DNA from: Bacteroidetes bacterium UBA4416
GTDB taxonomy: Bacteria > Bacteroidota > Bacteroidia > B-17B0 > Aurantibacillaceae
Assembly (NCBI GenBank): GCA_002390745.1
Contig: DGQK01000023.1
Coordinates: forward strand, 46,104-70,103
DNA length: 24,000 nucleotides
Reading direction: 5' to 3'
Shown piece by piece: positions 11,206-11,633 of this stretch. The stretch's first letter is position 1; each line of letters opens with the position of its first letter. The notes below the pieces were generated by a model. The model had not been told where the DNA came from. It worked only from the letters and a program-made list of their open reading frames with translations, and made no database searches. The translations under genes and the position numbers were made by a program.

Positions 11206-11336
11206 AAAGCAGTGTCGTCTGCAAGAGATACTTCATTTAAACTATGTACGCCGGTTCGAATCCGGTTCACGCTTGCGTGATGGCTGAGAGGTTAAGCAAT
11301 AAACAGCAAGCGCTCTTGTGAAATATTACCTGTTTT
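11206..11336 (+). ncRNA. Y-RNA-like unit 3 with circularly permuted tRNA body (YrlA-like)
   Basis: Outer AAAGCAG/CTGTTTT; 5' loop TGTCGTCTG; inner CAAGAG/CTCTTG. The interior runs, in order, ATACTTCAT hairpin, T arm GCCGG-TTCGAAT-CCGGT, capped acceptor-like hairpin TCACGC-TT-GCGTGA, TG, and D-like arm GCT-GAGAGGTTA-AGC. Confidence 0.6.
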
Positions 11337-11344
11337 TTTAATCC

Positions 11345-11476
11345 TTGATGAGTGGCGTAGCGTAGTCATCCTTCGGTAGAGCGTCCCACGGGAAGGTTGC
11401 AGGTTCAAATCCTGTCTCTTTTGCCCCCGAAAAGAGTAGCTCATACAAACAGACTATGCGCCTGTTTCCTCATCAA
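11345..11476 (+). ncRNA. Y-RNA-like unit 4 (type b loop) with permuted tRNA body
   Basis: Outer TTGATGAG/CTCATCAA (8 bp); loop 5' TGGCGTA, 3' GCCTGTTTC; inner GCGTAGTC/GACTATGC (8 bp). The interior has T arm GCAGG-TTCAAAT-CCTGT, capped hairpin CTCTTTT-GCCCCCG-AAAAGAG, then TA-GCTC, which can pair with the upstream GAGC. Confidence 0.65.
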
Positions 11477-11483
11477 AATCCTT

Positions 11484-11633
11484 GAATGGTGTCGTAGAAA
11501 AGAGGTACTTCGACTTCTAATCGGGAGATTGCGGGTTCGAATCCCGTCAAGGCAGCAATTAATAACGCCAATTGCCTTGTAGCTGAAAATGGAAAAAGCG
11601 CCAAAACGTTCTCTTTTCGCCTGTTGCCCATTC
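11484..11633 (+). ncRNA. Y-RNA-like unit 5 (type b loop) with permuted tRNA body retaining an anticodon arm
   Basis: Outer GAATGG/CCATTC; loop 5' TGTCGTA, 3' GCCTGTTGC; inner GAAAAGAG/CTCTTTTC. The interior has GTAC, anticodon-like arm TTCGA-CTTCTAA-TCGGG, AGATT, T arm GCGGG-TTCGAAT-CCCGT, capped acceptor CAAGGCA...TGCCTTG, TA, and D arm GCT-GAAAATGGAAAA-AGC. Confidence 0.7.

What the first reader, a model, noticed from the sequence alone, without database searches (positions are those of the whole stretch)
11206..11633. Three units contain a circularly permuted tRNA body, one with a complete anticodon arm
Units at 11206, 11345 and 11484 have interiors in the order T arm (GGTTCRAATCC type), a helix occupying the acceptor position but capped by a loop, TA/TG (positions 8-9), then a GG-containing D-like arm. 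This is a tRNA whose ends have moved away from the acceptor stem, which matches the YrlA-type tRNA mimicry described for enterobacterial Y RNAs. Unit 11484-11633 additionally keeps a full 5-bp/7-nt anticodon arm (TTCGA-CTTCTAA-TCGGG, UCU in the anticodon position). Its break point falls at position 26, between the D and anticodon arms. In unit 11345 the D stem appears to form in trans across the break (GAGC 11381-11384 with GCTC 11439-11442).
Basis: partly seen in the sequence, partly recalled or inferred. Interest (0 to 1): 0.7.

Follow-up and report, generated by a model that had tools for sequence, protein, structure and literature searches.

The report
Tandem tRNA-mimic Y RNAs beside Ro60
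The three repeats are real "inside-out tRNA" RNAs of a known kind (YrlA-type Y RNAs, partners of the bacterial Ro60 protein encoded just upstream). They belong to an unusually large, diversified array in a Bacteroidota genome.

Summary
Units 11207-11335, 11347-11474 and 11484-11633 each carry a T arm, a loop-capped acceptor-like helix, UA/UG and D-arm elements in permuted order. Unit 11484 also has a 5-bp/7-nt anticodon-like arm.

A Ro60/Rsr (TROVE) gene ends 504 nt upstream on the same strand. The three units belong to an array of at least nine modules that share a terminal stem, an invariant UGYCGUA motif and a UAC motif.

Eighty related Bacteroidota rsr loci carry such arrays, with a median of 5 modules. 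All helices covary, and so does the tRNA Levitt pair 15:48. Rejoined in silico, the 11484-type module is called a tRNA by ARAGORN, but its "anticodon" differs between orthologs, so it does not decode.

These are YrlA-type Y RNAs, a class known since 2014. The local twists are:
- a GNCGUA motif instead of GNCGAA;
- scores below the Rfam threshold;
- three different permutation break points, including one inside the D loop;
- large arrays.

Function (Ro60 binding, effector tethering) is inferred from homologs and was not tested. The result is a new variant of a known kind, of moderate interest.

The parts
9186..10703 (+). rsr: Ro60 ortholog (TROVE + Ro60 vWA domains), presumed protein partner of the RNAs
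   Evidence: Pfam TROVE 1.6e-30 and vWA_Ro60 1.1e-5. Full-length match to solved TROVE proteins 9l5y/9kop, E 1.7e-29.
10857..10879 (+). Left arm of a 23-nt inverted repeat. Contains CGTTCTTTGACAT, a promoter- or operator-like motif about 40 nt upstream of the first module.
10895..11017 (+). Module A: Y-RNA-like stem (GCCGUAG motif) with a non-tRNA apical domain of three hairpins
   Evidence: R1 20.8 bits; fold.
11031..11125 (+). Module B: Y-RNA-like stem with a T arm only (GGGGG-TTCGAAT-CCCCC, 11082-11098)
   Evidence: R1 22.4 bits; fold.
11136..11201 (+). Module C: minimal hairpin Y RNA (YrlB-like), P2 TATAAGG/CCTTATA
   Evidence: R1 10.4 bits, which is weak. Motif and stem read directly.
11207..11335 (+).
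- P1: 11207-12 with 11330-35.
- Motif GUCGUC.
- P2: 11220-27 with 11313-19.
- T arm: 11250-66.
- 5-bp capped acceptor-like helix: 11267-80.
- UG.
- D arm: 11283-97.
   Evidence: R1 60.5 bits, E 6.8e-15; orthologs listed.
11347..11474 (+).
- P1: 11347-52 with 11469-74.
- Motif GGCGUA.
- P2: 11360-67 with 11452-59.
- GGUA-GAGC: 11375-82.
- Degenerate anticodon region: 11384-93.
- V loop: 11394-98.
- T arm: 11399-11415.
- 7-bp capped helix: 11416-36.
- UA.
- GCUC-A: 11439-43, pairing back to GAGC.
   Evidence: R1 58.5 bits. Orthologs with full anticodon arms. Trans D stem 97.7% paired, with 3 of 4 pairs changed on both sides.
11484..11633 (+).
- P1: 11484-91 with 11627-33.
- Motif GUCGUA.
- P2: 11497-11504 with 11611-18.
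- UAC.
- Anticodon-like arm: 11509-25.
- V loop: 11526-30.
- T arm: 11531-47.
- Capped acceptor helix: 11548-79.
- UA.
- D arm: 11582-99.
   Evidence: Rfam YrlA 25.1 bits, E 0.012. Covariation in A1. ARAGORN calls the rejoined sequence tRNA(tct).
11639..11712 (+). Genuine tRNA-Lys(UUU), 5 nt after module F. The same synteny is seen in L002, L003 and L005.
11718..11740 (+). Right arm of the 23-nt inverted repeat (96% complementary to 10857-10879)
11744..12052 (+). Unit G: larger conserved ncRNA.
- Two T arms: 11912-30 and 11969-87.
- Small capped helices.
- UA plus D arm: 11941-57.
- Terminator-like hairpin.
- Lies upstream of the Band-7 gene.
   Evidence: nhmmer hits in L007, L025 and L004; alignment; Rfam tRNA 29.4 bits at 11934-11995.
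14562..14709 (+). Modules H (14562-14634) and I (14639-14709): two more minimal hairpin Y-RNA-like modules with the same GCCGU and UUACUUC motifs
   Evidence: R1 25.8 and 39 bits; folds.

Best explanation
The three units are YrlA-type bacterial Y RNAs, small non-coding RNAs that partner the Ro60 ortholog Rsr encoded immediately upstream.

Shown here:
- Each RNA's 5' and 3' ends pair into a two-part stem, P1 and P2, separated by an internal loop.
- The 5' strand of that stem carries an invariant U-G-Y-C-G-U-A motif. This is the Bacteroidota version of the GNCGAA Ro60-binding motif.
- The apical module folds as a tRNA whose acceptor stem is closed by a loop and whose chain break lies elsewhere: at the anticodon-stem position (unit D), at 26/27 with a retained anticodon-like arm (unit F), or inside the D loop (unit E).
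- The permuted architecture, its covariation, its tRNA tertiary-pair signature and its linkage to rsr are all demonstrated.

Inferred from Deinococcus, Salmonella and Mycobacterium work:
- Rsr binds the stem.
- The tRNA-like elbow recruits or gates an effector, such as PNPase or RNA-repair enzymes like the RtcB encoded in this island.
- The array is transcribed as a precursor together with tRNA-Lys and cut apart by tRNA-processing nucleases.
- The 7-bp capped helices of units E and F may be opened by RNase P and given a CCA tail, as in M. smegmatis YrlA.
For: Context: the TROVE/Ro60 gene 9186-10703 is on the same strand and ends 504 nt before unit D.

Family: 354 model hits at E<=1e-3 in 81 rsr loci, every listed hit (best 300) on the rsr strand. 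The median is 5 modules per locus, range 1-8, and 177 of 310 modules have a T loop. The motif occurs 377 times on the plus strand against 18 on the minus strand, concentrated 0-750 nt after rsr.

Structure, on the structure-blind MAFFT alignment of 18 orthologs: 95.9% of cells are paired, against 31-51% when partners are slid. Pairs with changes on both sides number 7/7 in the capped helix, 7/8 in P2, 3/5 in the T stem and 3/7 in P1.

Structure, on 149 modules: 92.5% paired and 35/36 pairs covary.

tRNA tertiary signature: G15:C48 97 times, A15:U48 34 times, mismatched combinations 3. U8, A14, G18-G19, A21 and the T-loop bases are conserved.

Homology to YrlA: sub-threshold Rfam hits with good E-values. 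The UAC motif matches the published YUAY (PMC4201824).

Unit F and 8 orthologs become ARAGORN tRNAs after in-silico re-permutation.
Against: - No unit, here or in the 15 relatives scanned at gathering threshold, reaches the Rfam YrlA gathering score (25.1 bits here and 31-49 in relatives, against 69).
- The putative Ro60-binding motif differs from the published one at its fifth base, U in 149/149 modules.
- There are no expression, Rsr-binding or modification data for any Bacteroidota module.
- Thermodynamic z-scores of the three units are unremarkable: -0.9, -2.7 and -1.0.
- The window's own D arms are partly degenerate, with 3-bp stems.
- The anticodon-like hairpin has only one covarying pair among the 18 orthologs.
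- The trans D stem rests on one independent variant lineage.
Confidence: 0.86

Rival explanations
1. They are true circularly permuted tRNA genes. The transcript would be circularised, for example by the RtcB ligase encoded in the island, then opened in the capped acceptor loop by RNase P/Z and CCA-tailed. The product would be a functional decoding tRNA, as in the red alga Cyanidioschyzon.
For: - Unit F and its orthologs are complete tRNAs once re-permuted.
- Their 7-nt loops keep Y32, U33 and R37.
- Units E and F have 7-bp acceptor helices.
- RtcB, an Rnl-type RNA ligase and an RlaP nucleotidyltransferase are nearby.
- The resemblance is noted in the literature (10.1101/312249).
Against: - The anticodon triplet differs between close orthologs: tct, tcg, tag, gtt, ttt, tgg, tcc. 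No decoding identity is conserved.
- Units D and E of the window lack a usable anticodon arm.
- The chain ends are embedded in a conserved stem with invariant motifs shared with modules that have no tRNA body at all.
- No CCA is encoded, and no bulge-helix-bulge splicing system is known in bacteria.
Confidence: 0.04
2. They are decaying remnants of tandem tRNA genes. The T arm of one tRNA and the D arm of the next happen to look like a permuted tRNA, and the region has no function of its own.
For: - Real tandem tRNAs in the same window (for example 1598-1685) match the internal part of the model, positions 26-113, at up to 40.8 bits.
- Chen 2014 warns that dimeric tRNAs give such false positives (PMC4201824).
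- A genuine tRNA-Lys sits inside the array.
Against: - In real tandem tRNAs the 'capped helix' positions do not pair (mismatch marks). In these modules they pair in over 90% of cells, with compensatory changes at all 7 positions.
- P1 and P2 covary.
- Invariant non-tRNA motifs flank every module.
- The arrangement is conserved in 80 species spanning several orders.
Confidence: 0.04
3. They are cis-acting elements rather than free RNAs. Possibilities are processing or stability signals of the rsr operon transcript, attenuators for the downstream Band-7 operon, or tRNA-like integration sites of a mobile island.
For: - A 23-nt inverted repeat brackets modules A-F plus tRNA-Lys.
- A shared promoter- or operator-like motif precedes three transcription units.
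- The neighbourhood is an accessory-looking RNA-repair island.
Against: - Each module is a self-contained closed stem with its own ends.
- Module number and order vary between loci while module architecture is kept.
- The bracketing repeat is not generally conserved; only L026 shows something similar.
- Homologous YrlA RNAs are free, Rsr-bound RNAs (PMC4201824).
Confidence: 0.04

Closest known systems
YrlA (Salmonella Typhimurium, M. smegmatis and more than 250 other species; Rfam RF02553; Chen et al. 2014, Wang et al. 2018)
   Same: - Encoded next to rsr on the same strand.
- Terminal stem with a 5'-strand G-N-C-G motif.
- Conserved UA(C) after the stem.
- Order T arm, loop-capped acceptor stem, UA, D arm.
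- Levitt-pair covariation.
- Optional extra hairpin 5' of the T arm.
- A 7-bp acceptor helix, as in the RNase P-cleaved M. smegmatis YrlA.
- Adjacency to tRNA genes and to RtcB.
   Different: - The motif is GNCGUA, not GNCGAA.
- Scores are far below the Rfam gathering threshold.
- The extra hairpin is a canonical 5-bp/7-nt anticodon-type arm followed by a 5-nt variable loop.
- One paralog (E) is broken in the D loop rather than at the anticodon stem.
- A locus carries 5-9 modules rather than 1-2.
Yrn1 / Yrn2 of Deinococcus radiodurans (Rfam RF01053)
   Same: Rsr-bound Y RNAs with a T arm. Yrn1 has an anticodon-like 5-bp stem. They are co-transcribed with a tRNA, and several RNAs are encoded next to rsr.
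   Different: Yrn1 keeps the normal tRNA order with its ends at the acceptor position, and it conserves both strands of the metazoan-like Ro-binding helix. There is no RF01053 hit in the window, only a weak one in L010 (34.2 bits).
YrlB-type hairpin Y RNAs
   Same: Modules C, H and I are long hairpins with the same 5' motif and a small apical loop. They sit beside tRNA-like paralogs.
   Different: There is no sequence similarity beyond the motif. They were not tested for Rsr binding.
Circularly permuted tRNA genes (Cyanidioschyzon merolae and other algae, one archaeon; Soma et al. 2007)
   Same: The 3' half is encoded before the 5' half, the acceptor stem is initially closed by a loop, and break points vary between genes.
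   Different: Those mature into decoding tRNAs through a splicing endonuclease and a circular intermediate. Here the anticodon is not conserved, and the ends form a conserved protein-binding stem.
Two-piece (permuted) tmRNA of alpha-proteobacteria and cyanobacteria
   Same: A bacterial RNA whose tRNA-like domain is assembled from a circularly permuted gene (my own knowledge, not tested here).
   Different: tmRNA has a free CCA end, is alanylated and carries a tag reading frame. Only the T arms give weak tmRNA hits here.
b7a-tRNA (Band-7-associated tRNA-like RNA, Burroughs & Aravind 2016, as described in 10.1101/312249)
   Same: A tRNA-like ncRNA in RtcB/Rsr/Band-7 RNA-repair neighbourhoods. 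A Band-7 gene (12340-13440) follows the array, and unit G directly precedes it.
   Different: The primary paper was not available, so its defining features could not be compared.

Membership tests
YrlA-type bacterial Y RNA | Encoded within 4 kb of a Ro60/Rsr (TROVE) gene, on the same strand | tested here: met
   rsr is at 9186-10703 (+). The units lie 504-930 nt downstream on the + strand. The same holds in 80 related loci.
YrlA-type bacterial Y RNA | 5' and 3' ends pair into a long stem | tested here: met
   P1 and P2 are 98% paired, with 3/7 and 7/8 pairs changed on both sides in the MAFFT alignment. In 149 modules they are 96.7% and 94.8% paired.
YrlA-type bacterial Y RNA | GNCGAAN0-1G motif near the 5' end (putative Ro60 contact) | tested here: inconclusive
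   The units have GUCGUCUG, GGCGUAG and GUCGUAG. Family-wide, G-Y-C-G-U-A has U at the fifth base in 149/149 modules. The position and most bases match, but one defining base differs.
YrlA-type bacterial Y RNA | T stem-loop with tRNA T-loop sequence, 5' of the D arm | tested here: met
   UUCRANU loop. The stem is 99.2% paired and all 5 pairs covary.
YrlA-type bacterial Y RNA | Loop-capped stem (AS) between the T and D arms, variable in sequence and length | tested here: met
   5, 7 and 7 bp in units D, E and F. All 7 pairs show compensatory changes.
YrlA-type bacterial Y RNA | UA dinucleotide followed by a D stem-loop with A14, GG and A21 | tested here: met
   UG/UA/UA in the three units. Family-wide: U 149/150, A 133, A14 140/142, G 133/137, A21 141/141. 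Unit E has the D stem split, GAGC...GCUC.
YrlA-type bacterial Y RNA | tRNA tertiary interactions possible, with Levitt pair 15:48 covariation | tested here: met
   G:C 97, A:U 34, A:C 3, G:U 0. This is a family-level result; relatedness of the sequences is not corrected for.
YrlA-type bacterial Y RNA | Reaches the Rfam RF02553 gathering score (69 bits) | tested here: not met
   25.1 bits for unit F and no hit for units D and E. Relatives score 31-49 bits, and there are no gathering-level hits in 15 loci.
YrlA-type bacterial Y RNA | Stable RNA bound by Rsr, carrying pseudouridine 55 and dihydrouridine | not testable with these tools
   Needs RNA-seq, immunoprecipitation and modification mapping.
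Circularly permuted tRNA gene | 3' half precedes 5' half, and rejoining gives a complete cloverleaf | tested here: met
   ARAGORN calls the rejoined unit F and 8 orthologs as tRNAs. Window units D and E are not called.
Circularly permuted tRNA gene | Product is a decoding tRNA, so anticodon identity is conserved among orthologs | tested here: not met
   The triplets are tct, tcg, tag, tct, tct, gtt, ttt, tgg and tcc in nine orthologs. There are 15 different triplets in 22 loops.
Circularly permuted tRNA gene | Ends form a bulge-helix-bulge motif cut by a splicing endonuclease, giving a circular intermediate | not tested
   The ends instead form the conserved P1/P2 stem. No such endonuclease was found among the 20 largest ORFs scanned against Pfam; the rest of the window was not scanned.
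Canonical tRNA gene | Recognised by ARAGORN or by Rfam tRNA at gathering score | tested here: not met
   None of the three units is called. Unit E gives only 20 bits against a threshold of 29.
Deinococcus Yrn1-type Y RNA | Match to RF01053, with normal tRNA arm order | tested here: not met
   No RF01053 hit in 10700-12300 at E<=10.

The most novel reading that the evidence does not exclude
The array may be a diversified set of Ro60-bound 'sentinel' tRNA mimics. Modules E and F have 7-bp acceptor helices and anticodon-type loops that keep U33 and R37 but have freely varying triplets. They would be opened by RNase P and CCA-tailed into two-piece tRNA look-alikes held on Rsr. These would act as decoys or sensors for tRNA-targeting nucleases, coupling tRNA damage to the RtcB/RNA-ligase repair genes of the island. 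The three break points would be snapshots of how Y RNAs arose from dimeric tRNA transcripts.
Probability: 0.1. Interest if true: 0.75.

Novelty: new variant of a known kind. Interest (0 to 1): 0.45.

Why it matters
Y RNAs and Ro60 are conserved from bacteria to humans, where Ro60 is a lupus autoantigen. What the tRNA-like module binds is still unknown.

This Bacteroidota family gives hundreds of natural variants in arrays of 5-9 paralogs. They share one Ro60-binding stem but have different apical modules:
- no tRNA body at all;
- a T arm only;
- the classic YrlA layout;
- a full permuted tRNA with an anticodon arm;
- a tRNA broken in the D loop.

Such a series shows which tRNA features are needed for function. 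It also gives concrete intermediates for the proposed origin of Y RNAs from dimeric tRNA transcripts. Current Rfam annotation misses the family at its gathering threshold. Cultured relatives (Flavobacterium, Pedobacter, Chryseobacterium) make it experimentally accessible.

Tried and rejected
- Rfam at gathering threshold found only tRNAs in the window and in 15 relatives. Only E-value mode exposed YrlA similarity.
- A search for the complement of a 7-nt P2 strand had too high a background in this A/T-rich sequence (67% perfect against 31% for scrambled controls). I replaced it with alignment-based counts.
- Minimum-free-energy folding gave weak z-scores and misfolded the capped helix of unit E. 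I did not use it as evidence.
- The metagenome scan for E-type modules returned 120 stretches that were mostly chance matches. Only about five were genuine, and of these L156, L191 and L200 were usable.
- The long-range inverted repeat bracketing the array was looked for in all loci and seen only in L026, so I do not claim it as a family feature.
- The supplementary tables of Chen 2014 are not held, and Burroughs & Aravind 2016 is not held. I therefore could not check whether Bacteroidota YrlAs were already listed, or compare b7a-tRNA.
- ORFs overlapping the units (11397-11582 +, 11441-11719 -) were treated as spurious because they overlap a tRNA and the covarying helices. I did not test them further.
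Full report
**1. What is there**

- Unit D (11207-11335) has a T arm at 11250-11266 (GCCGG-TTCGAAT-CCGGT). A 5-bp helix capped by CUUG follows immediately (11267-11280), then UG, then a GG-containing D arm (11283-11297).
- Unit E (11347-11474) has a T arm at 11399-11415. It is followed by a perfect 7-bp helix with a 7-nt cap (11416-11436), UA, and GCUC (11439-11442).
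- Unit F (11484-11633) has TTCGA-CTTCTAA-TCGGG (11509-11525) and a 5-nt linker. These are followed by a T arm (11531-11547), a 7-bp capped helix (11548-11579), UA and a D arm (11582-11599).

ARAGORN and Rfam at gathering threshold see none of the three units as tRNA. They do call a genuine tRNA-Lys(UUU) at 11639-11712. The exact T-loop 11-mer occurs seven times within 900 nt, against 0.86 expected in the whole window even with one mismatch allowed.

**2.

The ORF that ends 504 nt upstream on the same strand (9186-10703) is a Ro60/Rsr ortholog. It matches Pfam TROVE at 1.6e-30 plus the Ro60 vWA domain. It also matches solved TROVE proteins over its full length.

The wider window is an RNA-repair island. 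It contains:
- an RNA ligase, RtcB and RlaP;
- an RNase T-like exonuclease;
- a Band-7 protein;
- a WYL/WCX regulator;
- a cluster of seven tRNA genes.

A T9SS-sorted protein, together with the closest Rsr relatives (64-81% identity), places it in Bacteroidota, near Chitinophagales.

**3. The units are modules of a larger family**

All three units share a frame:
- a terminal stem P1 with a bulged U;
- the motif G-Y-C-G-U-A;
- a second stem P2 whose sequence differs in every copy but always has its complement at the 3' end;
- then (A/U)UACUUCG.

The same frame, with smaller or different apical parts, occurs at 10895-11017, 11031-11125, 11136-11201, 14562-14634 and 14639-14709.

A covariance model built from 18 orthologs of unit F (model R1) scores the units as follows:

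| Region | R1 bits |
|---|---|
| Unit F | 126 |
| Unit D | 60.5 |
| Unit E | 58.5 |
| Other modules | 10-39 |

Real tandem tRNAs at 1000-1900 match only the internal part of the model. In those hits the 'capped helix' positions are mismatched. This is exactly the dimeric-tRNA artefact Chen et al. warned about, and it separates the modules from it.

**4. Comparative evidence**

Eighty genome loci encoding close Rsr relatives were fetched.

- The 5' motif occurs 377 times on the rsr strand against 18 on the other strand, mostly within 750 nt after the rsr stop.
- R1 finds 354 hits at E<=1e-3, every listed hit (best 300) on the rsr strand.
- Full-length loci carry a median of 5 modules (range 1-8), and 57% of modules have a T loop.

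On a structure-blind MAFFT alignment of 18 F-type orthologs, my hand-drawn structure pairs 95.9% of cells, against 31-51% when partners are slid:

| Helix | Pairs changed on both sides |
|---|---|
| Capped acceptor helix | 7/7 |
| P2 | 7/8 |
| T stem | 3/5 |
| P1 | 3/7 |
| Anticodon-like hairpin | 1/5 (A-U to G-C, three sequences) |
| D stem | none (invariant) |

On 149 model-aligned modules, 35 of 36 pairs covary. That alignment leans towards the model.

The tRNA Levitt pair covaries sharply: G15:C48 97 times, A15:U48 34 times, A:C 3 times, G:U none. U8, A14, G18-G19, A21, the T-loop bases and Y48 are near-invariant.

**5. The anticodon arm**

Of the 150 best modules, 23 have all five pairs of this hairpin, and 22 of those have a 7-nt loop. 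The loops have Y32 in 20/22, U33 in 19/22 and R37 in 21/22, but 15 different central triplets. The hairpin is followed by a typical class-I variable loop, R-G-G-U-Y.

I then opened the capped loop, rejoined position 26 to 27 and added CCA. After this, ARAGORN calls unit F and all eight tested orthologs as tRNAs. The anticodons are tct, tcg, tag, tct, tct, gtt, ttt, tgg and tcc.

The body is therefore a complete permuted tRNA. The loop shape is conserved but the triplet is not, which argues against decoding.

Chen 2014 already described a less-conserved fourth stem-loop 5' of the T arm and called it V. Here it looks like an anticodon arm rather than a variable arm.

**6. Unit E**

Eight genome orthologs were found. 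All read UCGGUA-GAGC, then position 26, a hairpin, a variable loop, the T arm, the capped helix, UA and GCUC-A. This is a tRNA whose chain is broken inside the D loop, with the Ro60-type stem attached to the two D-loop ends.

Several orthologs have full anticodon arms where the window copy is degenerate, for example L005 with TTCTG-TTAATAG-CAGAA. After rejoining, L005, L006, L004 and L024 are called tRNAs. For these I had to add two artificial base pairs to their 5-bp acceptor helices.

GAGC/GCUC never varies in the eight genome copies. A metagenome pattern scan added L156 and L191 with UGAC/GUCA (L191 has GUCU) and L200 with GAGC/GCUU. With these, three of four pairs change on both sides and 97.7% of cells pair.

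Position 15, after GCUC-A, and position 48 also match as G:C or A:U in 9 of the 11 sequences read.

**7. Relation to what is known**

Chen et al. 2014 (PMC4201824) defined YrlA RNAs by these features:
- location within 4 kb of rsr on the same strand;
- a 5' GNCGAAN0-1G motif;
- a conserved YUAY;
- the order T arm, capped acceptor stem, UA, D arm;
- possible tRNA tertiary pairs, including Levitt covariation.

They also showed that M. smegmatis YrlA, which has a 7-bp acceptor stem, is cut by RNase P and receives CCA.

Wang et al. 2018 (10.1101/312249) solved the tRNA-like fold. They noted the likeness to permuted tRNA genes and cited a model in which YrlA arose from dimeric tRNA transcripts.

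The units here meet all the sequence-level criteria but two. The motif is GNCGUA, with U in 149/149 modules. The Rfam score is far below threshold: 25.1 bits here and 31-49 bits in relatives, with E down to 3e-8, against 69.

The local 5' motif, G-N-C-G-U-A-G, reads like tRNA positions 4-10 (acceptor end, U8, A9, G10). Unit E even scores 20 bits as a forward tRNA starting there. The three break points fit the dimeric-tRNA origin model well. That is my inference.

**8. Mechanism**

Shown here are the closed two-part stem with invariant 5'-strand motif, the tRNA-like apical fold, the linkage to rsr and the conservation of the arrangement.

Inferred from characterised homologs:
- Rsr binds the stem.
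- The tRNA elbow tethers or gates an effector, such as PNPase in RYPER or possibly the RtcB repair enzymes.
- The array is processed from a precursor together with tRNA-Lys.
- Units E and F may be opened by RNase P.

Rival readings each receive about 4%: functional permuted tRNAs, dead tandem tRNAs, and cis elements.

**9. Verdict**

The class has been known since 2014. What is new is a lineage-specific variant that current annotation misses, its expansion into arrays, and the additional D-loop break point. Interest is moderate.

Noticed in passing
window 1484-1567, 1659-1741, 1911-2004; L004 2055-2150: Three tRNA-like genes lie inside the tRNA cluster: two with a Pro UGG anticodon loop and one class-II Tyr GUA. 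They have perfect 7-bp acceptor stems, but T-loop bases 57-60 are replaced by a conserved hairpin (GGTTC-TCACG-N5-6-CGTGA-CTGCC). Neither ARAGORN nor Rfam calls them. One more copy is in L004, and it folds as a cloverleaf with an extended bulged T arm.
   Followed up: partly
window 10857-10879 and 11718-11740: A 23-nt inverted repeat (96% complementary) brackets modules A-F plus tRNA-Lys. It could be a processing stem or paired operator sites. Only L026 shows a comparable 18-nt repeat (5525-5542 / 6388-6405).
   Followed up: partly
window 2132-2144, 10858-10870, 11744-11756 (+), 11727-11739 (-); many loci about 25-45 nt upstream of their first module: The motif CGTTCTTTGA(C/A)AT recurs in front of the operon starting at 2214, in front of the Y RNA array and in front of unit G. 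It also precedes the first Y RNA module in at least 8 relatives: L005, L007, L010, L012, L016, L017, L021 and L069. It is a candidate shared promoter or operator of the island, possibly for the divergent WYL/WCX regulator at 7916-8932.
   Followed up: partly
window 11744-12052 (homologs L007 6630-6953, L025 6658-6921, L004 8205-8453): A larger conserved ncRNA chains two tRNA-like junctions: T arm, small capped helix, UA, D arm, T arm, capped helix. The capped helices and the D stem covary. It begins with a Y-RNA-like AGUGUC...GAUAUUC segment and ends in a terminator-like hairpin just upstream of the Band-7 gene. It may relate to the published b7a-tRNA, which I could not check.
   Followed up: partly
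window 14562-14709 and 14757-14771: Two more hairpin-type Y-RNA-like modules lie 3.9 kb downstream of rsr, after the RNase T-like gene. A lone T arm (CAAGG-TTCGAAT-CCTTG) follows them.
   Followed up: partly
window 35-23936 (gene content): The window looks like an RNA-damage response island. It encodes RNA ligase (35-622), ATP-grasp, HAD phosphatase, a sulfatase-like protein, two radical SAM proteins, a WYL/WCX regulator, Rsr, Band-7/SPFH (12340-13440), an S24-like peptidase, an RNase T-like exonuclease (13926-14468), RtcB (21115-22542) and RlaP (23151-23936).
   Followed up: partly
L004 5933-5950, 6330-6348, 7039-7054, 7530-7545; also L041, L046, L051: A palindromic element, TCCCGATAGCTATCGGGA, is scattered in some loci. 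In L004 it is inserted into a Y RNA module in place of the UACUUCG motif. It is probably a small mobile repeat.
   Followed up: no
After an RNase P-type cut and trimming it could supply the discriminator base plus CC of a CCA end. This is speculative.
   Followed up: no
window 10895-11017; L010 5605-5731: The first module of the array has a non-tRNA apical domain of three hairpins. The corresponding first module of L010 gives a weak hit to the Deinococcus Y RNA family (34.2 bits, E 0.02).
   Followed up: no
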